From Gekko japonicus (lineage: Eukaryota), in assembly GCF_001447785.1 (NCBI RefSeq), contig NW_015171513.1, positions 507,853-571,852 of the forward strand: a DNA stretch of 64,000 nt. The letters run 5' to 3'. A program made the translations under genes and the position numbers. Under the pieces are notes generated by a model. The model was not told where the DNA came from, searched no databases, and saw only the letters and a list, made by a program, of their open reading frames with translations. Of this stretch, positions 1 to 43,019 are shown in pieces; positions within the stretch are counted from its first letter, which is position 1; the number at the start of each line of letters is the position of its first letter.

Positions 1-298
1 GACGCGAAAGAAAGAGGAGGACTGCAGCTACCAAATCTTAGACTATATTATGAAGCGGTCTGTCTAACCTGGATGGAACAATGGGTGAAGCTTGAGAATG
101 ATAAGTTATTGGGGTTGGGGGGTCATGACTGTAGGTTTGGTTGGCATGTGATGCGAAAGAAAGAGGAGGACTGCAGCTACCAAATCTTAGACTATATTAT
201 GAAGCGGTCTGTCTAACCTGGATGGAACAATGGGTGAAGCTTGAGAATGATAAGCTATTGGGGTTGGAGGGACATGACTGTAGGTTTGGTTGGCATGC
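1..298 (+). repeat. 149-bp tandem duplication inside L1 ORF2
   Basis: 1-149 matches 150-298 with about 4 substitutions. Confidence 0.95.
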
Positions 299-1343
299 AT
301 ATTTATGGTATGATAAGATAAAAATGGATAGCTTTTTTAAACTTCACTTGGTAAGAAAAGCATTGTTTGTGGTATGGACAAGATATAAAAAATATTTTAG
401 GGATGTAAGACCATTGTGGATTGTACCAGTAGAAGTATTAACATCGTACTCAAGACAGCGAGACAAGGATTGGTTGCCATACAGAGACTTAATTAAAAAA
501 GAGGGAACAGAATGGGTAATGAAAAAGCAGAATGAAATTCAGTATGAATATGAATGGTTGAAATATATGCAGATTTATGATCTCTTCAGATCGGATAAAA
601 AAAATTATGGTTCTGGAGAAGAAAAAAATGAAATGGAAAATATTTGGGGAAGTGGAGAGGGGGAAAAAATCTCTAAAATGTATAAACTGTTGTTGAAATG
701 GTATACTGAAGATGAAATTGTTAAAGAGCAAATGTTAAAGTGGGCAATAAATATGAATAGGGAAGTGACTATTGAAACTTGGGAATATTTGTGGAAAAAC
801 TCTATTAAGATATCGACTTGTACCAATGTCAGAGAGAACTGTTTTAAAATGATGTACAGGTGGTACATGACTCCGAAGAAAATTGCAAATATGAATCAGA
901 ATATGTCAAACAACTGTTGGAAATGTAAGAGTCATGAGGGCTCATTTTACCATATGTGGTGGACTTGTGAAAAAGCTGCAGACTTTTGGACAAAAGTCCA
1001 CAATGAAATGCAAAAAATATTGAAATGCTCTTTTAAAAAAGCACCCGAAATTCTGCTTTTGGGTCTTAAAATAGAAGAAGTGAACACGACTAAAAAGACT
1101 TTACTTTGGTACTTAATAACAACAGCGAGAATGTTGTATGCACAATTCTGGAAAACAGAGAAAGTACCAGAGATTGAAGATTGGATACAAAAAGTTCTGT
1201 TCATGGCTGAAATGGACAAAATCACAAAAAAGTTGAACGGCAAAGAAGACAACGTATTTTTTGAAGAATGGAATGACTTTAAAATTTATCTGGAAAAGAA
1301 CTGGGATGTGAAACAAAATTTAATATGTTTAGATCAATATTAG
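150..1343 (+). pseudogene. L1 ORF2 C-terminal coding remnant (zf-RVT-like)
   Basis: Open frame of about 397 codons. The TTG start at 141 is created by the duplication junction. Confidence 0.85.
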
Positions 1344-1554
1344 GCTAAATGATGTTATCTTAAAACTGTAACGATAAGAAAAATGATATAATCGATGATA
1401 TATAATAATGTGGAGGGTAAGGGGGAAGCATTGCGGGAAGTCACAGGAGGGAGGGGAGGAAATGGATATAGGTGAATAATGGAAAATTGGAAATGGTTAA
1501 CTGTAAAACGCTTATGGAAAATAATAAAAATTTGTTTACTAAAAAAAAGAAAAA

Positions 1555-1625
1555 TGTGCATGCACATGAAAGATCATACCTTGAATAAACCTTTTTTAGT
1601 CTTAAAGGTGCCACTGGACTCTAAA
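1555..1625 (+). mobile_element. PLE terminal repeat (pLTR) fragment with the 3' half of a hammerhead
   Basis: tgtgcatgcacatgaaag..atacc..aataaa..ggtgccactggactc, the same repeat as at 1980-2070 and 4560-4630. Confidence 0.8.
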
Positions 1626-2029
1626 TACATAGACAGTAACCTAAAAATGCCCTTTGGCTAATATGAGTTGCTGTGATGGACTATATAGTGAAAATTGTCT
1701 CTTTGGTATGTTGTCCATCTAAGCCATTTACAGTTTTATAGTTCAGAACTTTTGTCCTATTTCTAGAAGGTAATCAGAAGAATATTGCTGACAGCGGTGT
1801 ACTGGAAAATGATGGGGAATCCCAGTTTTCCTGGAGTGTACAGGAAATGGTTAGAGATTTCTTTCATACTTTAATAACCCATTTGTCTTCGTAGTTGGAT
1901 TCTAAGGTAGTACTGCCTGAAAATGTCAGTCAAGGAGATTGATTCAGATGGGTAGCCGTGTTGGTTTGAAGCAGTAGATCAAATTTTGAGTCCAGTGGCA
2001 CCTTTAAGACCAACAAAATTTTATTCATG

Positions 2030-2067
2030 GTATGAGCTTTCATGTGCATGCACACTTCCTCAGATAC
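2030..2067 (-). ncRNA. Minimal type-I hammerhead ribozyme motif (PLE)
   Basis: Minus strand reads GTAT-CTGAGGA-A-GTGTGC(AT)GCACAT-GAAA-GC-TC-ATAC. The core is intact; C11.1 has decayed to T. Confidence 0.75.
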
Positions 2068-2336
2068 ATTGAAATGGAAGTTATCAGTCCATACATATTG
2101 GTAGAGGGTGAACAGCAAATTAGCATATGACATAATGAAGACGTTTTAACAGATGCACAAGCCAAACAGGAATTAGCTGCCACATACACCCAGACAACAC
2201 AATCACTGGACCTAACAATATCAACTACACCATCTCGGGCTTATTCACATGCTCATCTTCTGACATTGTATATGCCATTAAATGCCAACAGTGCCCTTCG
2301 GTTCTCCACATAGGGCAAGCAGGTCAAACCCTATAC

Positions 2337-2414
2337 CCGCGGCAGGTCATAATGCGGACTTTCTCGCGAGAGGCCCTGCAGCACTACATCCCGGTCATCC
2401 AGGAGGCGGTGAGC
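2337..2414 (+). pseudogene. CYP26A1: Captured CYP26A1-like intron-end/exon fragment
   Basis: 2346-2414 translates to VIMRTFSREALQHYIPVIQEAVS, matching the vertebrate CYP26A1 segment VIMxAFSRxALxxYVPVIxEEV as I recall it. It is preceded by cag and is GC/CpG-rich, unlike the host element. Confidence 0.8.
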
Positions 2415-2552
2415 ACAAATCTGACATCAAGAATCACAAGACTGAGAGGCCTGTAGAACACTTCAACCTTCTAGGAAATTCAATGGGTGACCTCAAAGTA
2501 GCTGTTTTTATTGCAAAGGAACTTCAGGAACAGACTGGAAAGGGAAACTGCT

Positions 2553-3997
2553 GACCTATTCAAAGTCTTAAAAGATGATGCTATTAAAGTGCTGCACTCA
2601 ATTTGCCAGCAAATTTGGAAAACACAACACTGGCCACAGGATTGGAAAAGGTCAGTATACATTTCAATCCCAAAGAAGGCAATGCCAAAGAATGTTCAAA
2701 CTATTCCACAATTGCACTCATATCACACGCTAGCAAGGTCATGCTCAAGATCCTACAAGCTAGGCTTCAACAGTACGTGGATAGAGAACTGCCAGAAGTA
2801 CAAGCTGGGTTTCGAAGAGGTAGAGGAACTAGAGATCAAATTGCCAACATTCGCTGGATTATGGAGAAAGCAAGAGAGTACCAGAAAAACATCTACTTCT
2901 GCTTCATTGACTATGCTAAAGCCTTTGACTGTGTGGATCACAACAAACTATGGCAGGTCCTTAAAGAGATGGGAGTACCAGACCACCTCACATGTCTCTT
3001 GAGAAACCTGTATAAGGGCCAAGAAGCAACAGTTAGAACCGGATATGGAACAACTGATTGGTTCAGCATAGGAAAAGGAGTACAACAAGGATGTATATTG
3101 TCACCTTGCTTATTTAATATATATGCAGAGTACATCATGCGAAATGCTGGCCTGGATGAATCACAAGCGGGAATTAAGATTGCTGGGGAAAAGATCAACA
3201 ACCTCAGATATGCAGACGATACCACTCTAATGGCAGAAAGTGAAGAGGACCTAAAGAGCCTCTTGCTCAGGGTAAAAGAGGAGAGCGCAAAAGTGGGCTT
3301 GAAGCTCAACATCAAAAAAACTAAGATCATGGCATCCGGCCCCATCACTCCTTGGCAAATAGAAGGGGAAGCTGTGGAAGTAGTGACAGACTTCACGTTC
3401 CTGGGATCCCAGATCACCGCAGACTGTGACTGCAGCCATGAAATTAAAAGACGCCTGCTCCTTGGGAGGAAAGCGATGGCGAACCTAAACAGCATGATAA
3501 AAAGTAGAGACATCACCCTGCCAACAAAAGTCCGCATGGTCAAAGCAATGGTATTCCCAGTAGTCATGTATGGCTGCGAGAGTTGGACTATAAGGAAGGC
3601 CGAGCGCCGAAGAATAGATTCTTTTGAACTATGGTGCTGGAGAAGACTCTTGAGAGTCCCTTGGACTGCAAGAAGAACAAATCAGTCAATCCTCAAAGAA
3701 ATCAACCCTGACTGTTCCCTGGAAGGCCAGATAATGAAACTGAAGCTCAAATACTTTGGCCACCAAATGAGAAGGGAGCACTCACTGGAGAAGACCCTGA
3801 TGCTGGGAAAGATTGAAGGTCAAAGAAGACGGGGACGGCAAAGGATGAGATGGTTGGACAGTGTCATCGATGCAACGAACATGAAACTGAGCAAACTTCA
3901 GAGGACAGCGGAAGACAGGAGGGCCTGGCGGGAGTTGGTCCATGGGGTCGCGAAGAGTCGGACTCGACTGTGCGACTGAACAACAACAACAACAACA
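2553..3997 (+). mobile_element. BovB (RTE-clade) LINE, 5'-truncated, nested in the PLE
   Basis: RT motifs QAGFRRGRGTRDQI, FIDYAKAFD, QGCILSP, LRYADD; typical BovB C-terminus; (CAA)n tail at about 3980-3997. Confidence 0.97.
2603..3979 (+). CDS. BovB reverse transcriptase domain and C-terminus (no endonuclease)
   Basis: Open for about 435 codons after a frameshift near 2675; the upstream BovB frame is the 2511 ORF. Confidence 0.85.
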   Translation: MPANLENTTLATGLEKVSIHFNPKEGNAKECSNYSTIALISHASKVMLKILQARLQQYVDRELPEVQAGFRRGRGTRDQIANIRWIMEKAREYQKNIYFCFIDYAKAFDCVDHNKLWQVLKEMGVPDHLTCLLRNLYKGQEATVRTGYGTTDWFSIGKGVQQGCILSPCLFNIYAEYIMRNAGLDESQAGIKIAGEKINNLRYADDTTLMAESEEDLKSLLLRVKEESAKVGLKLNIKKTKIMASGPITPWQIEGEAVEVVTDFTFLGSQITADCDCSHEIKRRLLLGRKAMANLNSMIKSRDITLPTKVRMVKAMVFPVVMYGCESWTIRKAERRRIDSFELWCWRRLLRVPWTARRTNQSILKEINPDCSLEGQIMKLKLKYFGHQMRREHSLEKTLMLGKIEGQRRRGRQRMRWLDSVIDATNMKLSKLQRTAEDRRAWRELVHGVAKSRTRLCD

Positions 3998-4822
3998 CCC
4001 GAAGCAACCCTCCCAAGATTTAACAGTCATATTGGTTTCTTGTCTTACTACATCCAGTCCTTACATCTGTATTTTCACAGAGAAGGGCTATACATCTTCT
4101 TTATTTTAGTGTTATTTATTGGAATAATGATTGTAATGTAATGCAGTGAATATTAGAATGTAATGTCATTTAGAATGGTAGATAGAAATGTATTTCTCTG
4201 GTCTGGTGACAGAGGAGACATAAAACTGCAGCTCAAAGAATAGGATGTTGTTACCTCCATGTTTGAGAGGAGATGGATGGAGCGTAACAACAGGGTCTCA
4301 ATTGATTAATCTTAGCATCCCACAATTAAGTAGGATACATTTACACATCAGTCTCCAATTTCTGACATATTTATTTGCTTCACTGTTTCCCCCCTCCCCT
4401 TTGGAATTAAATCCTAACAAATGGTGACTATGTAAACTTAGCTTGTTATTCCTATTTGGTTTGCACATCTTTTAAAACATCTTCATTATGTTGTATGCTA
4501 ATTTGCTGTTCACCCTCTACCAATATGTATGGACTGATAACTTTCATTTCAATGTATCTAGTATGCATGCACATGAAAGCTCATAGCTTGAATAAAACTG
4601 TGTTGGTCTTGAAGATGCCACTGGACTCAAATTTAGTCAAGGAGATTGGTTAAGGTAGGGTTACCAGATGTCCTCTTTTTAGAGGACATATCCTCTTTCT
4701 TTGGTGTCCGTGTTTTTTTTTGTGTGGGGGGCCCCTCTTTTTTAAAAAAACCTGATGAAAATGTTGTATTTAGGTTGGAAGATTAGGAATATTCCTGGTT
4801 AGTAACAATTACCAGAGTTTAA

Positions 4823-11050: not shown

Positions 11051-12132
11051 GTGTTGGTCTGAAGCAACAGAATGAAGTTTGAGTCCAGTGGCACCTTTAA
11101 GACTAACAACGTTTAATTCTGAGTATAAGATTTTATGTGCATACACACTTCTTCAGATACATTGGAGCAGACTTCCTCAAGTCTTGCATATACCGGGGGG
11201 GGGGGGGGGTCGAGTGGCCCGGGAAATTAGAGTCAAGATGCATAAGTAACTAAGTGCTAAGTATAGCTAAAATTGGATTAAAGCAGTTAATAACACCTGT
11301 GAATAGCAGCAAATTAGCATACAAATAAAAGAGTTAAAAAACAGATGTGATAACTAAATTTGAGTCCAGTGGCACCTTTAAGACCAACAAAATTTAATTC
11401 TGGGTATAAGTGAGAACTGAGTGACTTAGTATGTGTAGATGCACACTTCTTCTGATAAATTAAAGCATTTCAAACTCCCAGGGCACTCAATGGGGGACTT
11501 CAAAGTAGTTGTTTTATTGCAAAGGAAAAATGGGCTGAAATGGGGGATTGCTGAATTACAAGTTATCACAACACTCAGTCAATGGAAACCCAGGGTTTAA
11601 CAGAGATAACAGGTTCTTACGTCACTACACATTGCCAAGTCACTCAGTTCTCACTTATACCCAGAATTAAATTTTGTTGGTCTTAAAGGTGCCACTGGAC
11701 TCAAACTTAGTTCTCACATCTGTTCTCTTTTATTTGTATGCTAATTTGCTACTATTCACAGGTCTTAGCAACTGCTTCAATCCAAGCTTAGCTATACTTA
11801 TCACTAAATTACTTATGCATCTTGACTCTGACTAGCTTTTCCTGGCAACTAACACCCCTACCACCACTTTTGAGGAAATCTGTTTCAGTGTATCTAAGAA
11901 GTGTGCATCTACACATGTTAATTCAGTTCTTACTTATACCCAGAATTGAACTTTGTTGGTCTTGGAGGTACTACTGAACTCAAACTCAGTTGTCACAGCT
12001 GTTTGTTAAATCTTGTATTTGTATGTTATTTTATCACTAATCCCAGGTTTTATCAACCACTTTAATCCAATCTAGCTATAATTTCCCAGTTACTTAAGTA
12101 TCTTGACTCTATCTAGCCCTTCCTGGGCTACC

Positions 12133-12238: not shown

Positions 12239-14770
12239 AAGCCCCTCAACTATATGCAATGGTTGATGGAGTTTTGTTTCAATGACTCTGTAAGTGTGCA
12301 TGCACACAAAACCTTATGCCGAGAAATAAACTTTGTGAGTCTTAAAGGTTTCTTTGAATGAATGAATATTCATTTGAATGAATTTGAATTAATTCTTTGA
12401 ATGAATATTAATATTAAATTATTAAAATTAATATTAAATATTAAAACCATAATTTATTAAGCACATACAAATAATAATATGCTTATGTGGTTGTGAGAAC
12501 ATGTAATTAAAACATGTTAATTCTATATATATTATGTGGGATCATAATATGATCCTAATTCCTCATATTCTCCTGGTGAATTTCTGCATAGAATTTACGT
12601 ATGCATCAGTTATAGAGTTTATACTGGAAACTGCATATGCAATCCAACTACTCCCACTACCTGTATTCATGTCACATGTGTATGGTGTTTTATAATGCTG
12701 AGTGGCTGTTCTGTGGCAGATCAGTATTTCAGAAGATATATAGTGTATTTTGTGTGGCAAGCTCATATTTAATGAGCCCATGCATGTCTACAGACCTTTG
12801 GTGCACATATTGATATTAATGGGTTTGAGTTGGAATTATTGTAGAAAACAAAGGGAATTTTTCATTATGGTTATTTAGATTACGGCCTACTTGCTAGATG
12901 GTGCTATCTCAGTTGCTTTTATATTATAATGGAATATTCTGGTTTCTCAAAGGGAAGAGGTTCCTTTCAATACCTTACAAAATTTATTATTATTTTGCTA
13001 GGAGAGTTTGATAAAACCCACATTTTTCTTTGTGCCTTTCTGATCTAAATGTAAATCCTTTAGCAATATTGATGTTACAGAGTGGATTTTTGTTGTTGTT
13101 ATTATAGTTCCCATCCAGGTATATTTTCTATATTGATGCACAGCTTAGAAAATAAGTATTCAACATTTTCTCTCTGTTTGAAAACAATTTAGCCTTTTTT
13201 CCCTTCAGAGAATGTTATTCTGGATCCTTGTATTTTCTTAACATATGGAAATTTAATAAACATAGCAGATGCAGTCTTCAGAGAAATTATATTTTAGTGC
13301 TTCAAATAAAGTTTAAAGGGCTATATGAATTTGAAAACACTTTCAAGCTTGCACATGAGGGAAGAAATATACCATACATTTGCTTGCCCTAAGCAAGGAA
13401 GACAGAAGGTAAGTAAGCAATTAATGTCTTTGTGGCAAAACATTTAAACTTAATGCCAACTGTGACAAGTATTGAAATACATATTGGTAAATGTGAGTAT
13501 GGTATAGCCCCTAGTAAAGCCATTATTGTAAATGGTATACTGATCTTTTAACAGCCATGCTGGTAGTTAGTTTTGTAAAATTATGTATGGAAAATAGTAA
13601 CATACCTGAATTAAGGTTTCCTGTCAAATGGGAAGAAACAGTAGTTTTCACTATCTTCTTTATAAAGATTTTGAGAAGCAGCTGCCACTAGTGAAATACT
13701 GAAGTCTCTCATTAAGTCACAATGATCCTGCTACATTCGAGACCTCATAACTAGTTACTTCAGTACAGAAATGAATGCAGATTTTTTTTTCTGATCAGGC
13801 ACACCAACGGCAGGTGCACACATTACATTTCAATAGGTATGCAGATGAGAGACATTCTGATATTTATATATCAAGAAAATCATACATTTCAAACTTGTAA
13901 AACAGAGAGGTTACCTATATACCATTGCAAGCACACACAATACATGTAACCATATAGTACTCAGAATACTCCCCCCCCAGATGTGCAGCTGGTGACTGCA
14001 CCTTCTTCAAAGCGGAATCCTGATCTGAATCCCTTTCACCCAAACCAAAACTATCACTGTTTCTAAACACTCCTCTGAATTCATTGTGATTGCATTGTTC
14101 TCTTGTTGGAATTATCAATGGCTGTATTGTGCTGCTGTCTCTTTTTTCTTGCTATTTTCAGTGGGGGGGGAGAGAGAGGGGGGGTTAAGGATGGTAATTG
14201 TATAGGCTGAGAAGCCAACACTATCTGTTCAGGAAGCTCAAGTGATGCTCCTGATATCCTAAATACTCAGAGAATCCTCCTCTGTTTTGCATCTTTTTAT
14301 GATGACTGGAACACAGAATAAAAGTAATACTCCTAGCAGGAGTAGCAGAGGTAGGTGAAAGGGAGATCCTTTCCAGTTATGCACACACAATTTTTTAAAA
14401 GTCATCCAGAAGTCTAAGTGATGAAAAGAAACTTTTAAAGGATGAGAAACAAAGCCAAGTTTTATTAATTTAACATGTGTTGCATTTTTAAGTGATCAGA
14501 GAAGTTGCCTGTTTGCTAGATAAAATAATTAAGTCAGAATGGTTCTTTAAATCAAAGAACAATGCTAACCAGCACTTTGTAAAAGCCAATATATTTTTAC
14601 AACTGAATTTCTTTGAAAACGAAGAATTTTAAATAGGATGTTCTGTTTACATTTGCAATGTAGAATACAGGGTGGATTTGATTTAAATCAAATTGGTTTA
14701 TATTGTGATTTGAATCACAATTTAAATTACTCATCAGTAAAACTCCATTTAAATCATGGTTTTCTACATA

Positions 14771-25488: not shown

Positions 25489-25723
25489 GTCTCATTACCA
25501 ATGCTGATTTCTCCACACCTCTGCATATCTCACCTATTACCCCTCTGCATATCTCACCTAAATCCAAACATGCATGCTATTGTTATTCACCTGCTATTGT
25601 CATTTGCTTGCTGATCCAACATTGGCTTCTCTTACCTTCTTATGTTTGTATGTTTAATGTCATTCAGCATCTGAAATCACTCCACTTTCCAATAAATAGA
25701 ATAGACCGACACCCATTCTAGCT

Positions 25724-25763
25724 GTATCTGAAAAAGTGATTAGTGACTCACGAAAGCTTATAC
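25724..25763 (+). ncRNA. Decayed hammerhead motif (G8A)
   Basis: GTAT-CTGAAAA-A-GTGA(TTAGTGAC)TCAC-GAAA-GC-TT-ATAC. Confidence 0.65.
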
Positions 25764-26234
25764 TATGCCACATATTTTGTTAGTCTTTAAGGTGCTACCA
25801 ACATTTGCTCTTTTCTACTGCTACAGACTAACACAGATACCCATCTTGATATAGATACATATATAACATACACAAATATTGTTTTAATATTTTGACCGTA
25901 TGGAATGTTTGATGAATGCTGCTACCCATTCTGAGCCCTGGTATACAGGGGAGGGAGGGCTATAAATTGAATGAATAAATAAATAAATTTAAAAGAGATG
26001 CTGCTAACAGCAGTTCCTGTGATTGTAGTTGTATAAATAAACTAAGAATAATGTAGATTACAAACCAGGTTTATTATAAATCTTAAACAGGCATAGCAAC
26101 TATAGCATATTTCAGTGAATCAGCCTAATCCCAGACCAGAACTCCACTATTCCACTTCCTATTTCCTGTCCTTCAATACTACATCTATCAATATCCTCTG
26201 GTGTTTATAACCTACATCTAAGAAAACAACGACA

Positions 26235-30002: not shown

Positions 30003-30137
30003 GAAGTCCAGTAGCACCTTAACCACCAACAAAATTTTCTAGGATATAAGCTTTTGTGAATCAAAGCTCACTTCATCAGAAAGTGAACCCAAATTTTGTT
30101 TTACTACTGCAGACGAACATAGCTATCCACCTGAAAC
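30003..30137. mobile_element. Short PLE pLTR remnants (inverted pair) with a decayed hammerhead
   Basis: Minus strand CTGATGA-AGTGAG..TTCAC-AAAAGCTT, then a plus-strand tail. Confidence 0.65.
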
Positions 30138-35869: not shown

Positions 35870-37013
35870 ATATATCTAATTTTCAACCTGTCCCCATCTG
35901 TGGATAATGAAATCTGGACACTGAAGCCGTGAACAGACAGGACAGATCTTTATACAAACCAGAGAAGATCCTAGGTTTGCTGCACTATTGCCTGCACAGA
36001 AAAACCCTCTTGAATAATTCAGTTTTGCATAGTTTGTGGAAAGCCAAGAGAGTGAGAGCCTTCTTGACTTGCTCAGACAATCCATTCCACAAGGTAGGGG
36101 CCACAATGGAGAAGATACATGTATGGGCAGTTGTTGATTTTGTCCATTTGCAGGTTAGCACCTGCAGAAGACCCTGCTCCAATGAACAAAGTTCTTGTGG
36201 CGGAACATAGAGGGAGGGACAGTCTCACAGATATGAATGTCCAAGCCCATGAAGTATGTGATAGCCAGTACTTTAAACTGAGCCCCGTAACTGATGGGCA
36301 ACCAGTGGAGTGACTGTAGAATGGGATTAACAGGCATGTTCCACCTAGTATCCTGTAATAGCTGAGCTGTGGCATTCTGCATCAACTTGAGTTTCCAATT
36401 TGATTTTGAGGGGAAACCAATATATAGTCAATGTATGTAATAGCTGAGCTGTGGCATTCTGCATCAACTTGAGTTTCCAATTTGATTTTGAGGGGAAACC
36501 AATGTATAGTCTTAATGTGGCTATGGCATGGATCCAGGTGGCCTAATCAGCTGTATCAAATTAAGACACCATTTTTGAGCTAGGCTGAAAGCCTTTTTTG
36601 TAAGTGCATTAACTTGCTTCTCCATCAAAGATGTTGGGTCCAGTACAACCCTGAGGCTCTTAACTGTAGAAGCAAGGGTCAGCTTAACTCCATCGAAAGT
36701 GGGGAGCAAAATGTCCTTCAAGTCCTCTCCCTTCCCAAGTAGCATTATTTTTGTCTTTCCAGGGTTTAGTTTCAATTTGTTCACTCTTAGCCATTTAACC
36801 ATTGCAGCCAGGGACTGGTTTTGGACCTCTATTGCATCACCAGTAAAAAACAATCAATATATATATAGCTGAGTATTGTCAGCATATTTATGCAGCCAAC
36901 CCCAAAACTACAAATGATTCGGCCTAAGGGCTTTACATAAAGACTGAAGAGCATTAAAGATAGGACCCAGTGGGACCTCACAGGATAGGTCCCACACTGA
37001 TGATAACTGTTCT
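35870..37013 (-). mobile_element. L2 LINE ORF2 3' portion
   Basis: WLRVNKLKLNPGKTK, QNATAQLL..LQSLHWLPI, FSIVAPTLWNGL..CKTELF. Confidence 0.9.
36354..36519. repeat. 82-bp tandem duplication in L2
   Basis: 36354-36435 is near-identical to 36436-36519. Confidence 0.9.
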
Positions 37014-37541: not shown

Positions 37542-39405
37542 CTACTGGGTCAAATGTAGAAAGGCAACAAATTCTTCCTTGATATATACTGCAAAGGAAT
37601 CACATCAACAGTAGTTCAAACCCAATAAATTCAAGACATGATTTACAAAGGTCCACAGAAAAGTCTTCTGGATGCAGACAGCAGTGTTGAATGGTTAAAC
37701 AAAAAAAGATTTCAATAAGATGTTCCATCATAAAAGTACATGTGAAGAAATGACTATTCTACCCTCCCTCTTCTGAAAGTGCAGAAAAACTAATACCACA
37801 GATAGTCTGCATGAATAGCTGCAAATGCTAAACAAAAACTCATATGTTCTTACCCATACATGGCAATTATTTGAGCTGTTTCATGTGTACAAGAAAGAAT
37901 CTCAGGGATCTCAGCATAGCAGAGGGAGGAGGATGTGAATCATGCTTTCTCTTTTGACATATTATTTCTTATAACATATGATGCATGTGAAAAAATTCTA
38001 TATACTGGGTAAATCAATGCTTCACTGCAACACTTCTCACATTACTGTTTTCAGGCATGGTCTTGGTCCTCAGTCATGCCCACAATTAAGGCTGCGTCAG
38101 CACCAACAATTCACCCTGCATTTTTTTTTTTTGGTTGGCCCTCTTTGGCTCTGCACATTCCAATACTACCTTTTGCATACTTTCAATTGATCTGTTGTAA
38201 ACAGCAGCACTAGGACTCCTTTGGTTTGGTTTTTACCAGTGTACCGTCATAATGCCTAGAATGCAGCATCTTCCTTGTGCATCATACCTTTGGGATATAG
38301 TGCACCTGCGCTGACCCCGATCGATACTTCTTAGAAAGCGAAAGGGATTTTCGCGCCCACTCCCCAGTCACTTGCCGGCCCCACTGCGCATGACTAGGGG
38401 AGGGGCACGACAATCCCACCAGTTCTCTTCTGACCACCGCGCTGGTAGGATCTTCTCTACTTTGATCGGTAATTTTTCTGGCTTTAGGGCCTTTTCTTCT
38501 TCTCTTCAGAGTTTTTTTTGTTAAGTGAAAGGACAATATTGTTACCTGGTTTTGCTTTTTTTGGACTCTTTCGTTTTGGTCTCCCTTGCTAGACAGACCC
38601 CTATGGACAAGAGGTGGGGTTTCTTTAAACGGTGCCTGAAGTGCAGTGATAAAATCGCCCCCACCCCCTGACAGACACTCACTTTGCCTTCTGTGCCTTG
38701 GGGAATTGCACCAAGTGGACTCCTGTGCCCATTGCACGAAGTTCTCGAAGCAGACGAGAAAGAACACAGCTGCTAGACTTTGCGTTGCACTTTTGGAATT
38801 AGCTCTCTCACCGATGTCGTCATCGCAGGACACTTCAGGACACGCTTCTATGTCTACTCCCACCTCGGGATTGATGGCCACATTGTCTCTGATACTGACT
38901 CACTCCGATGTCGACCGCCTGATGTCAGTCCGAAGCCCATACTCCCACTGAAAAATTCAAGGAGGGCAAGGACGACAAGAAGCATAAGAAACCCCCCCTG
39001 TGCAAACTCCGCTGATCCCTCAGAGGGCCATGGAACCTAATCCTGGTGGGGCTGCTTCACTTGACTCCACGTGCCATGAGCAGCAACAAGGTGTACCCCT
39101 TTCACCTTCACTGCATCCTATCCAGCTCACTGACTCTTAGCATGATATGGACTTAACACAGATCTCCTGGTCTTCCAGTGTTGAAAGCCTACACTCAGAC
39201 CATTGAGCTGGCACCTTTGTGTATCCTTCACTGCTTCGATCCGACGATCGAGACTGGCCATCGGGACCGATCCATCTGCTGCTACCCCCTTGGGATCAAC
39301 GGCAATGGCAATACATGTATGGGGCCTATCCCTTTACAAGCGGCATGCCATGGTTCCTGCCCCAACCGGTGGAATGGGATCGTCAATCCACTTCCTCCTG
39401 ACTTT

Positions 39406-39739
39406 CTTGGTATCGAGACCCTCTCCCGACGCCGAAGTTTGTGAAATCCCAGCTGTTGAGACCGACAGGTAGTATAAATCTACAAAGGGGACCAGCAATT
39501 TAAAGATACAACAATAATGGAAGAAATTGCTGTTAGGTTCACACAATAGCACTGTATAGACAAAAATGAATACTTGGTATCGAGACCCTCTCCCGACGCC
39601 GAAGTTTGTGAAATCCCAGCTGTTGAGACCGACAGGTAGTATAAATCTACAAAGGGGACCAGCAATTTAAAGATACAACAATAATGGAAGAAATTGCTGT
39701 TAGGTTCACACAATAGCACTGTATAGACAAAAATGAATA
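39406..39739. repeat. Identical 167-bp tandem duplication
   Basis: 39406-39572 equals 39573-39739. Confidence 0.95.
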
Positions 39740-39815
39740 AATAAACTTGTTGAGATGACGTTCAATGATGTTTGTAATTTTTATATTTTCAGGACAAAGG
39801 ACGTCTGACACTGAA

Positions 39816-39887
39816 GATAGGTGATACGAACATCTCGAGTGGTAGTTCGTTTCGAGACACAACTATTTTTCAACCACAATTCCTATC
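39816..39887 (-). ncRNA. Extended type-I hammerhead-like motif, U3-A8 core (copy 1)
   Basis: GATAG-GAATT-GTGG-TTGAAAA-A-TAG(TTGTGT)CTC-GAAA-CGAAC(13 nt)GTTCG-TA-TCAC-CTATC. Confidence 0.6.
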
Positions 39888-39897
39888 AAAAGCAGAT

Positions 39898-40501
39898 TGC
39901 ATAGGCTTCCGGTCTGGCTCCCACGAATGGCGGACGCATCCTCGGGTCGCTCCCGAGGGCGTCTCGTCCGCCCGCGGTGGAGGAGGGAATCCGCGCGAGC
40001 AGAGACCCGAACGAGCCCCTCAGGAAGAGAGGAGCTCGGATCCGGGGCGCTTTAGGGCGTACTAGGGGGGAGTCTCTTTTTNNNNNNNNNNNNNNNNNNN
40101 NNNNNNNNNNNNNNNNNNNNNNNNNNNNNNNNNNNNNNNNNNNNNNNNNNNNNNNNNNNNNNNNNNNNNNNNNNNNNNNNNNNNNNNNNNNNNNNNNNNN
40201 NNNNNNNNNNNNNNNNNNNNNNNNNNNNNNNNNNNNNNNNNNNNNNNNNNNNNNNNNNNNNNNNNNNNNNNNNNNNNNNNNNNNNNNNNNNNNNNNNNNN
40301 NNNNNNNNNNNNNNNNNNNNNNNNNNNNNNNNNNNNNNNNNNNNNNNNNNNNNNNNNNNNNNNNNNNNNNNNNNNNNNNNNNNNNNNNNNNNNNNNNNNN
40401 NNNNNNNNNNNNNNNNNNNNNNNNNNNNNNNNNNNNNNNNNNNNNNNNNNGAAATACCTCCCCTTTTTAGGGGAGTTAATAAAGTCTTTATTTAAAAAAA
40501 A
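39898..40501 (+). mobile_element. L1-like insertion: CpG-rich 5'UTR, gap, poly-A end, 10-bp TSD
   Basis: Starts cttccgg..aatggcgg; AATAAA and A-tail follow the gap; AAAAGCAGAT at 39888-39897 and 40502-40511. Confidence 0.7.
40082..40450. other. Assembly gap
   Basis: Run of N. Confidence 1.
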
Positions 40502-40640
40502 AAAAGCAGATGGAATACAATGAGCTCCTGAACAATATACATAGGCTATGATTGAATTAATAAAGAATAAAGTTACATACAGATTCTCTGGTTGTCTTTT
40601 TGTGTACAGAGGTAGTATCAATCTTTTCCTGTATTATACA

Positions 40641-40871
40641 NNNNNNNNNNNNNNNNNNNNNNNNNNNNNNNNNNNNNNNNNNNNNNNNNNNNNNNNNNNN
40701 NNNNNNNNNNNNNNNNNNNNNNNNNNNNNNNNNNNNNNNNNNNNNNNNNNNNNNNNNNNNNNNNNNNNNNNNNNNNNNNNNNNNNNNNNNNNNNNNNNNN
40801 NNNNNNNNNNNNNNNNNNNNNNNNNNNNNNNNNNNNNNNNNNNNNNNNNNNNNNNNNNNNNNNNNNNNNNN
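40641..40871. other. Assembly gap
   Basis: Run of N. Confidence 1.
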
Positions 40872-41271
40872 CTATAGAAGACTACAGACTATAATATAAT
40901 GCTATGTAATATTAGAGAATCCACATTGTATATGTTTTGTAGTTTTGTCCTTAGCCTGATGCATCTATCAATTTGTGCTAAAGTTATATGTACTGGTAAG
41001 TTGGCCATCCTTGCATGCACAAGCAATTTACCTTGTTTGCATTTTGCACCTATTTAAGGAAATGGATGCTTGTACTCAGTAAGACTTGTTGTCCGGACTG
41101 AAAACTAGTAAGCCTGCGTGCTGTATTATAAACTTGTTAGCCTGTGTGCTGTTGGAACTGTTGTTGGTAAGTTTTGTAACATGAATGTACCATTAATAGG
41201 GATTGAGTTATGCAACTTGCTTTTGTTCTCATATCATGTTTTGTATATTACAGGAAAAGATTGATACTTTT

Positions 41272-41339
41272 GATAGGAATTGTGGTTGAAAAAGAGTTCT
41301 CGAAACGAACTACCACTCGAGATGTTCGTATCACCTATC
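41272..41339 (+). ncRNA. Extended type-I hammerhead-like motif, U3-A8 core (copy 2)
   Basis: GATAG-GAATT-GTGG-TTGAAAA-A-GAG(TT)CTC-GAAA-CGAAC(TACCACTCGAGAT)GTTCG-TA-TCAC-CTATC. Confidence 0.65.
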
Positions 41340-43019
41340 TTCAGTGTCAGATGTCCTTTGTCCTGAAAATATAGAAATTACAAACATCATTGAACGTCAT
41401 CTCAACAAGTTATTTATTCATTTTTGTTCTTTCCATTATTGTTGAGACCGACAGGTAGACCAGCTAAACCACTGCCTCTGATAGTCCCCAAGTTTAAAGA
41501 TCCATCGGAACCAATCCCATCGACACCGGTGTTGCCTATTTCTTTTTCTGAACCATCTGAGCATTCCACCTCTTATGACACCTCCTCCCATTCAGGAGAC
41601 GAGAACCCTGATCCTCCGGTGGAACCCTTGCCACCTCAGCAAGTGGGCGACGATCTCCCAATTTCTCAGTCGGGGGATCTAAAATCCTATGGGGATTTCA
41701 TCAAGCGGATGGCCAACATGCCCTCCTTCCCCTCTGCTTTTGGTCCTCTTGGGGTTTTTTGCTCTGAGACTGATGGCAGCAGTCAGAAGGAACTGGCAGG
41801 ATTGTCATGCCCCTTCCCTAGTCACACACAGTGGGGCCGGTGCGTGACTGGGGAGTGGGCACAAAAATTCCTTTTGCTTTCTAAGAAGTACTGATTGGGG
41901 TCGGCGCAGGCGCACTATATCCCAAAGGTGTGTATGCACAGATGACCACTCGGAGATCATCAGTAACAGGTAAGCAACCTGTCTTTCAACCCTCACACAC
42001 ATACACAAGACCTCACTGGATGGGCTTGGGCAAATTCTCTCTCTCTTGCTTGCTATGAAGATAAATGCAGATAAAAACAACTCGCTACTTTTTGTTTAGA
42101 CTGCATTCCTGCTGCTAGAGATTGTCCTCTAGATAATTTGTGTATCGTACCTATGAGTGCCCATTAGCAGAAGTAATCTGAACAGCTGCACCCAGGGCCG
42201 GTGCCAGGGTTTTTTTTGCACACTAGGCGAGACTACCTTCTGGCACCCCTCCCCCCGTGCACCCGCAAATTTTAAAACATAAATGCATTTTAGGAAGGCT
42301 AAAAAACTGCTTGTGCAGCTGCCCTTGTGGAGGCTGCTGTGATGGAAGGATATGGTGGGGGGGATAGGGAAGGAGGAGGAGAAGGAGGCGGGGGAGCAAG
42401 GCTGCGATCCATGTGTGGAACCGAAGAGGAGGTGGAGAAAGGGGCTCTTGTCCGCCTCTCTCTCCGGCTGCCCCAGCTTTAGGACTCACAGCCAGTGGGC
42501 ACTCCTGGCCCGGGGGTGGTGAGGGGGAAGGGAAAAAAAAGACATAAGCCACTGTAGTTGGCGCTAACTGGAGAAGCTGCCCAGGCTCCTTGGGTGGCTG
42601 CTGGCATCGAGCCGGGACTTTCCCCCTCATTGGGCAGGGCCACAGAGGACTCTCAGGGAGCCAAGCTAGCATGGTGTGTGTGTGAGACTCTCCAGCTGTG
42701 CCTACCTTCGTCTCCCGCCCACCAGGTGCCAGTGGCGCGTAAGCATCTCCTGTGTTGCTCTGCTGCTTGGCCTCAGCTTCCTTGCCCTCCTGTGATTCTT
42801 GGCGGGACTATGTTCCTCCTGCTGCTGCTGTGCCTCTGCTGCTCAGGCTGGAGCCTGCTAGCGCCCAACCAGGCACGGCGGGAGTGCTCGGCCGGCCTTG
42901 GGAGAACCAGCAGCGGAGGAGGAGGCAGGAGCCAGCCAGCGGTGGTGGGGAGGGGAGGGGCGGGCTCGGAAGCCAGCTGAAACACCGTTCTGGGGCGTTC
43001 CACCCCCAAAATAACCTTG

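What the first reader, a model, noticed from the sequence alone, without database searches (positions are those of the whole stretch)
2337..2414. CYP26A1-like intron/exon junction captured inside a Penelope endonuclease
Seen: a 78-bp GC-rich patch with about 7 CpGs interrupts the decayed GIY-YIG sequence between ..GQTL and HKSDIK.. and translates to VIMRTFSREALQHYIPVIQEAVS. Known (from memory): this matches retinoic-acid hydroxylase CYP26A1, where the upstream residues are ..RKK and an exon begins at VIM. Here the upstream bases are ccgcggCAG, which looks like a splice acceptor. Inference: a recent templated insertion from genomic DNA or pre-mRNA during double-strand-break repair, replacing about 15-20 bp of the host with no TSD. 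Capture by the PLE reverse transcriptase is the alternative.
Basis: partly seen in the sequence, partly recalled or inferred. Interest (0 to 1): 0.75.

Follow-up and report, generated by a model that had tools for sequence, protein, structure and literature searches.

The report
CYP26A1 scrap patching a dead retroelement
In what is likely a gecko genome, 76 bases of the retinoic-acid-degrading gene CYP26A1 sit in the middle of an old, broken Penelope-like jumping element, likely as a DNA-break repair patch (a known kind of event), and the same join turns up inside the public Gekko japonicus CYP26A1 protein record, which is likely mis-assembled there.

Summary
Bases 2338-2413 are the end of CYP26A1 intron 2 plus the start of exon 3: 21-22 of 23 residues match gecko CYP26A1, and the upstream 8 nt match a bird-like intron end 6/8 but the spliced exon only 2/8. 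They replace about 14 nt of a decayed Penelope-like endonuclease, with no TSD or poly(A) and a 1-nt microhomology.

The element's inverted arms differ by 9%, yet all 7 CpGs of the patch are intact, so the patch likely came later, as a class-2 templated repair insertion (0.55).

Two extras:
1. The RefSeq G. japonicus CYP26A1 model carries the same 18 Penelope-derived residues before exon 3. This is likely a chimeric assembly through the shared 76 nt, or possibly a real donor.
2. Two closer relatives hold the fragment at 8-10 times single-copy depth (about 3-5 or more copies), but no contig spans it into Penelope flanks. An amplified Penelope subfamily is disfavoured, not excluded (0.17).

No reads of the window's own species were available, so misassembly remains possible (0.1). 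New member of a known kind; modest interest.

The parts
1941..2173 (-). Inverted, 5'-truncated copy of the Penelope-like element (left arm)
   Evidence: 1982-2173 matches 4634-4448 on the opposite strand, 170/192, 17 substitutions in 187 aligned bases; pieces of other copies break at 2173/2176 (table 8)
2176..2337 (+). Decayed Penelope-like GIY-YIG endonuclease, part before the patch
   Evidence: Atlas look-alikes include clusters with GIY-YIG in 10% (0.90) and HTH_animal in 18% (0.88) of members; no Pfam hit; tens of thousands of contigs of other copies laid on the stretch
2338..2345 (+). Last 8 nt of CYP26A1 intron 2 with the CAG acceptor
   Evidence: 6/8 identical to the intron end of L001, 2/8 to the spliced exon-2 end; bird read-through proteins end PGQ or LGQ before VIM
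2346..2414 (+). First 69 nt of CYP26A1 exon 3; the C at 2414 is shared with the element (1-nt microhomology)
   Evidence: 21-22/23 residues to gecko CYP26A1; 58/69 nt to L001; empty copies resume at 2414
2414..2554 (+). Penelope-like endonuclease, part after the patch, now out of frame with the first part (net +62 nt)
   Evidence: HKSDIK lies in another frame than GQTL; other copies cover 2415-2545 at high depth (table 2)
2550..3998 (+). 5'-truncated LINE (BovB/RTE-like; family label recalled) inserted into the element, one frameshift, (AAC)n tail; start approximate
   Evidence: RVT_1 E 1.9e-37 in an open 457-aa frame; frames; tail
3999..4634 (+). 3' remainder of the Penelope-like element, including the right arm 4448-4634
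   Evidence: blastn; 2 CpG in 642 nt

Best explanation
Seventy-six bases spanning the CYP26A1 intron 2/exon 3 boundary replace about 14 bases of an old, dead Penelope-like element, likely as a patch copied from the gene or an unspliced transcript during end-joining repair of a germ-line break, likely long after the element had inserted and likely only in this lineage. Shown: donor identity, acceptor-type upstream bases, small deletion, no TSD or poly(A), 1-nt microhomology, frameshift. Inferred: the break and its repair pathway (polymerase-theta-like or reverse-transcribed patch), the timing, and that the patch has no function. The G. japonicus RefSeq model with the same left junction is read as a by-product: an assembler lacking the GC-rich intron 2 likely walked out of exon 3 through the shared bases into this element, crossing over between 2358 and 2407.
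For: Junction anatomy matches class 2 templated insertions as described in PMC5110952. Empty copies join 2332-2337 to 2413-2417 in 7 of the 15 joints shown, and 2337->2414 in 4 of 4 runs. Age gap: arms differ at 17/187; the element has 4 CpG in 397 nt, 0 in 129 and 2 in 642, against 7 in 77 in the patch; six CpGs would all survive 4.5% divergence with P 0.005-0.07 under assumed 5-10x CpG rates. In the two relatives that hold the unique left flank (6-7% diverged), the best contig over 2372 has only 31 aligned letters on one side, so none spans the patch; an old Penelope-borne family gives that in 0-15% of simulations per species. P0130 equals the window at 18/18 element residues, including His from C2307 where 96-99% of the depth of other copies has T; the next best of 160 proteins is 4/18; it has the patch's Thr but the gene's Glu.
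Against: No read or contig of the window's species was laid. The fragment is multi-copy in X2 and X3 (9.9x and 7.7x flank depth; 11 and 6 contigs at 2372), and one or two copies never reached that depth in simulation; a one-off patch does not explain this. The 31-letter argument rests on my reading of one table column, and tables 5, 7 and 8 were cut (287, 2092 and 144,530 rows hidden). A young family (1% per copy) passes that test in 57-68% of simulations. Up to four differences from gene-like sequence (2341 inferred, 2358, 2372, 2407) are not CpG decay, which is many for a recent patch unless donor or polymerase supplied them. Intron evidence is short: 4 of 6 discriminating bases, chance 0.04-0.12.
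Confidence: 0.55

Rival explanations
1. A Penelope-like master copy captured the fragment (template switch of its reverse transcriptase, or a repair patch in the master) and was then amplified in trans as an endonuclease-dead subfamily; the window holds one member and the relatives' extra copies are others.
For: 8-10x depth and 11 and 6 contigs inside the patch in exactly the two runs that share the unique flank, none in X1 or X17; 3-5 copies fit; a second record (P0130) has the same left junction.
Against: No contig has more than 31 aligned letters on both sides of 2372; for copies 3-4.5% diverged this occurs in 0-15% of simulations. CpGs are intact while the element is depleted. No fusion protein in two word-based searches (weak, both also missed CYP26A1 itself).
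Confidence: 0.17
2. The P0130 junction is real: a piece of this element family lies directly before exon 3 in the G. japonicus CYP26A1 gene. A break in the window's element invaded that copy, copied through it and 76 nt on into the gene, and rejoined at 1 nt of microhomology (one-sided invasion).
For: 38 consecutive identical residues across the left junction; it would explain why the patch starts at an element-homologous position and why only Glu->Ala separates patch and model; both Gekko models lack the normal end of exon 2, while 5 of 5 other gecko models have it.
Against: The element piece is decayed, so it should also be in the relatives' genes and give contigs aligned well beyond 2342 on the left, which were not seen. 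Two of three Varanus models are also broken at this spot, so it is generally hard to assemble. The model lacks 16 conserved residues, which points to an assembly gap (inference).
Confidence: 0.12
3. The patch in the window is an assembly or library chimera and is not in the animal.
For: No spanning reads could be tested; the window has 1,022 N and tandem duplications typical of gap closing; the Glu->Ala change lies 7 nt from the right junction and is in 0 of 160 proteins.
Against: It needs two chimeric joints 14 nt apart in the same element copy with only 1 nt of overlap; the left junction is also present in an independent named record; no N lies near the patch.
Confidence: 0.1
4. The template was spliced mRNA, and the bases before the exon are non-templated filler that resemble an acceptor by chance.
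For: The AG before the exon is also the end of the Lys codon of exon 2; only 6 bases discriminate.
Against: 0 of those 6 bases match the spliced exon and 4 of 6 match the intron; the relatives' genomic contigs appear to align from 2342.
Confidence: 0.04

Closest known systems
Class 2 templated sequence insertions / polymorphisms (TSI, TSIP; Onozawa and Aplan, PMC5110952)
   Same: Short copy of a distant, transcribed locus; no TSD, poly(A) or polyadenylation signal; microdeletion and microhomology at the junctions; size at the low end of the 73-414 bp they report for induced events.
   Different: Here in a reptile, inside a dead Penelope-like element, with a coding donor that carries a splice acceptor; polymorphism, an RNA template and an intact donor were not testable; the donor segment is multi-copy in relatives.
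Penelope-like elements with C-terminal GIY-YIG endonuclease (Craig et al., PMC8557442; Frangieh et al., PMC11167929)
   Same: The host is 5'-truncated with an adjacent inverted truncated copy forming inverted repeats, as described there.
   Different: The passages read describe no internal capture of host exons ('template switch' occurs 0 times in both texts); the host lacks RT and has no Rfam ribozyme hit.
Gene-fragment capture by mobile elements (Pack-MULE, Helitron, 3' transduction; recalled, search listing only)
   Same: Host intron/exon sequence embedded in an element.
   Different: The piece is internal, replaces element bases and shifts the frame; carriage by several element copies was not shown.

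Membership tests
CYP26A1-derived fragment | Best match is CYP26A1 rather than another P450 | tested here: met
   21-22/23 to gecko CYP26A1, 12/23 to a CYP26B1-like protein; CYP26C1 not compared directly
Class 2 templated insertion | Donor is a distant locus | tested here: met
   No other CYP26 exon within the 64 kb window (tblastn, blastn); true distance unknown
Class 2 templated insertion | No TSD, no poly(A) | tested here: met
Class 2 templated insertion | Microdeletion or microhomology at the junctions | tested here: met
   About 14 nt lost (one contig plus joints); C2414 shared, since orthologues continue with Ala after Ser
Class 2 templated insertion | Empty orthologous site or polymorphism; donor left intact | tested here: inconclusive
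   Relatives hold the flank and no contig spans the patch, but no contig bridges flank and site; no genome held
Class 2 templated insertion | RNA-derived patch | not testable with these tools
   Genomic DNA and pre-mRNA give the same sequence
Processed retrocopy / class 1 insertion | Spliced junction, TSD, poly(A) | tested here: not met
   2/8 to the spliced exon end; no TSD
Penelope-borne captured fragment (amplified subfamily) | Several copies with the same two element junctions | tested here: inconclusive
   Multi-copy inside the patch in 2 of 4 runs, no spanning contig seen
Penelope-borne captured fragment (amplified subfamily) | Fragment as old as the element copy | tested here: not met
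   CpG o/e 0.90 in the patch against 0-0.24 in the element; arms 9% apart; rests on assumed CpG rates
Penelope-like element (host) | GIY-YIG endonuclease with CCHH motif | tested here: inconclusive
   Atlas lead, CxxC visible in translation, no Pfam hit
Penelope-like element (host) | Inverted 5'-truncated copy forming terminal inverted repeats | tested here: met
   feature from PMC8557442
Penelope-like element (host) | Hammerhead ribozyme in the pLTR | tested here: not met
   0 Rfam matches at E<=1 in 1500-4800; decayed or minimal ribozymes can be missed
Penelope-like element (host) | Telomerase-like RT in the same ORF | not testable with these tools
   Copy is truncated within the endonuclease; the RT at 2588-3958 belongs to the inserted LINE

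The most novel reading that the evidence does not exclude
The G. japonicus record is right: a look-alike stretch of a Penelope endonuclease (6 of 9 residues identical to the end of CYP26A1 exon 2; 16/27 nt to the bird-like gene) has replaced the end of exon 2 in a working retinoic-acid hydroxylase, and the window's element holds the reciprocal product of traffic between element and gene, with extra copies of the exon-3 start spreading in Gekko.
Probability: 0.05. Interest if true: 0.8.

Novelty: new member of a known kind. Interest (0 to 1): 0.32.

Why it matters
If the best reading holds, this is one more germ-line repair patch, a kind known from human genomes, here in a reptile and datable against its host element. 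The practical point is that a 76-nt copy of an exon start can corrupt a public gene model: the only G. japonicus CYP26A1 protein seen here (XP_015262121.1) has 18 element-derived residues and a Thr found in none of the other 159 proteins, which could mislead selection or gene-loss studies. The open question of more interest is why two relatives hold several copies of this exon start.

Tried and rejected
No whole genome is held, so copy number in this species and the donor's DNA were not seen. Pfam and PDB searches with the 23-26-residue peptide gave 0 hits (too short). Two word-based searches for an element-CYP fusion protein gave no candidate; they also missed CYP26A1 and P0130, so they carry little weight. 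Two of the 3 hits are repetitive Hibiscus proteins at 36% identity and were dropped as chance. Run search: no RNA holder listed, and the best share of words was 0.22 of 24 runs listed; 4 of the 24 were laid. X1 and X17 have no cover inside the patch; a human-likeness filter may have removed the gene, so this is no evidence of absence. I first read the absence of rows for 2358 and 2407 as showing that relatives share the patch's substitutions, then dropped that: all 40 rows shown have a best distance of 31 or more letters from a piece's end, so these places could not have been listed. I first read the 8-10x depth as 8-10 Penelope-borne copies; simulation showed that overlapping contigs inflate depth (3-5 copies suffice) and that an old Penelope-flanked family fits poorly. 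In the gene-flank model the start at 2342 was set after seeing the data, so its good fit is not an independent test. CYP26B1/C1 as the source of the extra depth: rejected, too diverged (12/23 residues) and too few. A function for the in-frame 105-codon read-through 2139-2453: no start signal or relative found, not pursued. Paper searches found no report of this insertion or of CYP26A1 duplication in geckos (2 and 1 listings, not about this; 0 papers; general listings). Earlier-finding look-ups by sequence, place and specific words were empty.

Full report
Observation. It has GC 0.64 and 7 CpG; 655 of 63,923 windows of 78 nt reach 7 CpG. The window has no name and no genome is held. Its repeats and the protein matches below point to a gecko, likely genus Gekko (inference).

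Identity of the patch. A feature search put a cytochrome P450 cluster first (0.90). A full HMMER scan gave 3 hits: two repetitive plant proteins, dropped as chance, and P0004 at 81%, a genomic read-through of a bird-like CYP26A1. Searching with its exon gave 229 proteins, 120 listed, mostly named CYP26A1. The 23 residues from 2346 match Sphaerodactylus and Gekko kuhli at 21/23 and G. japonicus at 22/23; a CYP26B1-like protein matches at 12/23. The two differences fall on conserved columns: Ala in 158 of 160 proteins at position 5 (Thr only in P0130) and Glu in 159 of 160 at position 21 (Ala in none) (160 of 169 stored proteins passed a 12/23 cut).

Intron or mRNA. A metagenome scan returned two vertebrate genomic CYP26A1 contigs among 18 loci. 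In L001 a 105-nt intron ends directly before the Val codon; L002 has an intron end at the same place. The exon part is 58/69 identical to L001. The 8 bases 2338-2345 match the intron end at 6/8 and the spliced exon-2 end at 2/8. Only 6 of these bases discriminate (4/6 against 0/6; chance 0.04-0.12), so the evidence against spliced mRNA is moderate. Genomic DNA and pre-mRNA cannot be separated. The exon number 3 is inferred from the alignment.

The host. The element runs from about 1941 to 4634: an inverted truncated arm (1941-2173), the endonuclease remnant from 2176, a later LINE at about 2550-3998 (RVT_1; the BovB label is recalled), and the 3' part. The inverted arrangement is a described Penelope feature (passages of PMC8557442). 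The endonuclease label rests on an Atlas lead and visible motifs; Pfam and Rfam gave nothing. Contigs of four public runs were laid on 1640-2545. Other copies skip the patch: 7 of the 15 joints shown run from 2332-2337 to 2413-2417, and 2337->2414 occurs in 4 of 4 runs. One contig has 21 letters between 2332 and 2416, so about 14 nt were lost. The insert is therefore 2338-2413, with C2414 shared by gene and element, no TSD and a net +62 nt that shifts the frame.

Age. The two arms, assumed identical at insertion, differ at 17 of 187 bases. The element has 4 CpG in 397 nt, 0 in 129 and 2 in 642; the patch has 7 in 77. With assumed CpG rates of 5-10x, six CpGs would all survive 4.5% divergence with P 0.005-0.07, and 1% divergence with P 0.3-0.55. 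The patch is thus likely younger than the element. Against a very young age, up to four positions differ from gene-like sequence without being CpG decay.

Relatives. No run held the window's species (best share 0.22 of the words, 24 runs listed), so spanning reads were not tested. X2 and X3 cover the unique left flank at 6-7% divergence; X1 and X17 do not. Inside the patch (2353-2383) depth is 191.6 in X2 (flank 19.3) and 84.4 in X3 (flank 10.9), with 11 and 6 contigs at 2372, all with A for G; X1 and X17 show none. In k=31 simulations one or two copies never reached 7.7x, while 3-5 copies fit. The best of these contigs has 31 aligned letters on its shorter side in both runs, so none spans the patch into the element. 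For Penelope-flanked copies 3-4.5% diverged that happened in 0-15% of runs, and for 1% diverged copies in 57-68%. It is what gene-like copies whose likeness starts at 2342 would give, but that start was chosen after the fact. So the relatives likely hold several copies of the exon-3 start, likely not as an old Penelope subfamily. Their flanks were not seen: 287 joints, 2,092 loose ends and 144,530 pieces were not shown. This remains unexplained.

A second record of the junction. The RefSeq model of G. japonicus CYP26A1 (P0130, XP_015262121.1) lacks the last 16 residues of exon 2 and has in their place the 18 residues encoded by window 2292-2345, followed by the patch's Thr and then the gene's Glu and the rest of exon 3 (38 consecutive identities). 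The next best of 160 proteins matches 4/18. The piece includes His from C2307, where 96-99% of the depth of other copies has T, so it derives from this copy or a very close one. No donor site in the patch can give that protein by splicing from the window's copy, since the window encodes Ala where the model has Glu. The simplest reading is a chimeric assembly at the gene: the GC-rich intron was missing and the contig was extended through the shared bases into the element, and the annotator kept the piece because it resembles the end of exon 2 (6 of 9 residues). This would also mean that real reads crossed the left junction. The rival is a real element piece at the gene that served as donor. Both Gekko models are abnormal here and 5 of 5 other gecko models are normal, but two of three Varanus models are broken at the same spot.

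Mechanism and verdict. The anatomy fits class 2 templated insertions: no TSD or poly(A), microdeletion, microhomology, distant transcribed donor (PMC5110952, parts 1-3 of 4 read). I give 0.55 to a later repair patch, 0.17 to an amplified Penelope subfamily, 0.12 to a real element-gene donor, 0.10 to an artefact in the window and 0.04 to a spliced template. Papers seen: PMC5110952 (most of the text), PMC8557442 and PMC11167929 (passages), the rest as search listings only; no supplements were opened, and repeat libraries in such files might bear on the element's family. Searches found no report of this case. New member of a known kind; interest 0.32.

Noticed in passing
P0130 (XP_015262121.1), residues 124-141; window 2292-2345: The public G. 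japonicus CYP26A1 model carries 18 residues identical to this window's Penelope-like element in place of the end of exon 2; likely a chimeric assembly, unproven.
   Followed up: partly
window 2353-2383, runs X2 and X3: The exon-3 start is multi-copy (about 3-5 or more) in two relatives, flanks unseen: gene duplicates, a tandem array inside CYP26A1 or another repeat could explain it.
   Followed up: partly
window 2346-2414: The patch runs from a splice acceptor to the end of a donor-like hexamer (2409-2414, also present in L001), enclosing 63 nt in frame; it could act as a mini-exon or be chance.
   Followed up: no
window 2292-2318: The element's endonuclease resembles the end of CYP26A1 exon 2 (6 of 9 residues; 16/27 nt to L001) just upstream of the patch; probably coincidence.
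   Followed up: partly
window 2550-3998: A younger 5'-truncated BovB/RTE-like LINE (457-codon open frame, one frameshift) sits in the same element about 140 nt after the patch, without a clear TSD and apparently with some element bases lost.
   Followed up: partly
P0033, P0132, P0133: Gekko kuhli and two Varanus CYP26A1 models also lack part of the end of exon 2, so this spot is often mis-modelled.
   Followed up: no
window 1-300, 36340-36510, 39405-39740: Near-exact tandem duplications of about 150, 85 and 170 nt, seen by eye; they may be gap-closing artefacts of this assembly, which has 1,022 N.
   Followed up: no
window 38230-41990: A repeat with inverted ends interrupted by N gaps and by an inverted pair (about 39735-39860 and 41290-41460); looks like a DIRS-type retroelement remnant (label recalled).
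   Followed up: no
L001 1-3913; L002 1-3084: Bird-like and fish-like genomic CYP26A1 contigs lie in the metagenome collection, presumably host DNA.
   Followed up: partly
window 1552-1626, 11051-11990, 12277-12349, 25723-25846, 30005-30080: Further short pieces of the same Penelope-like family; none covers the patch site.
   Followed up: partly
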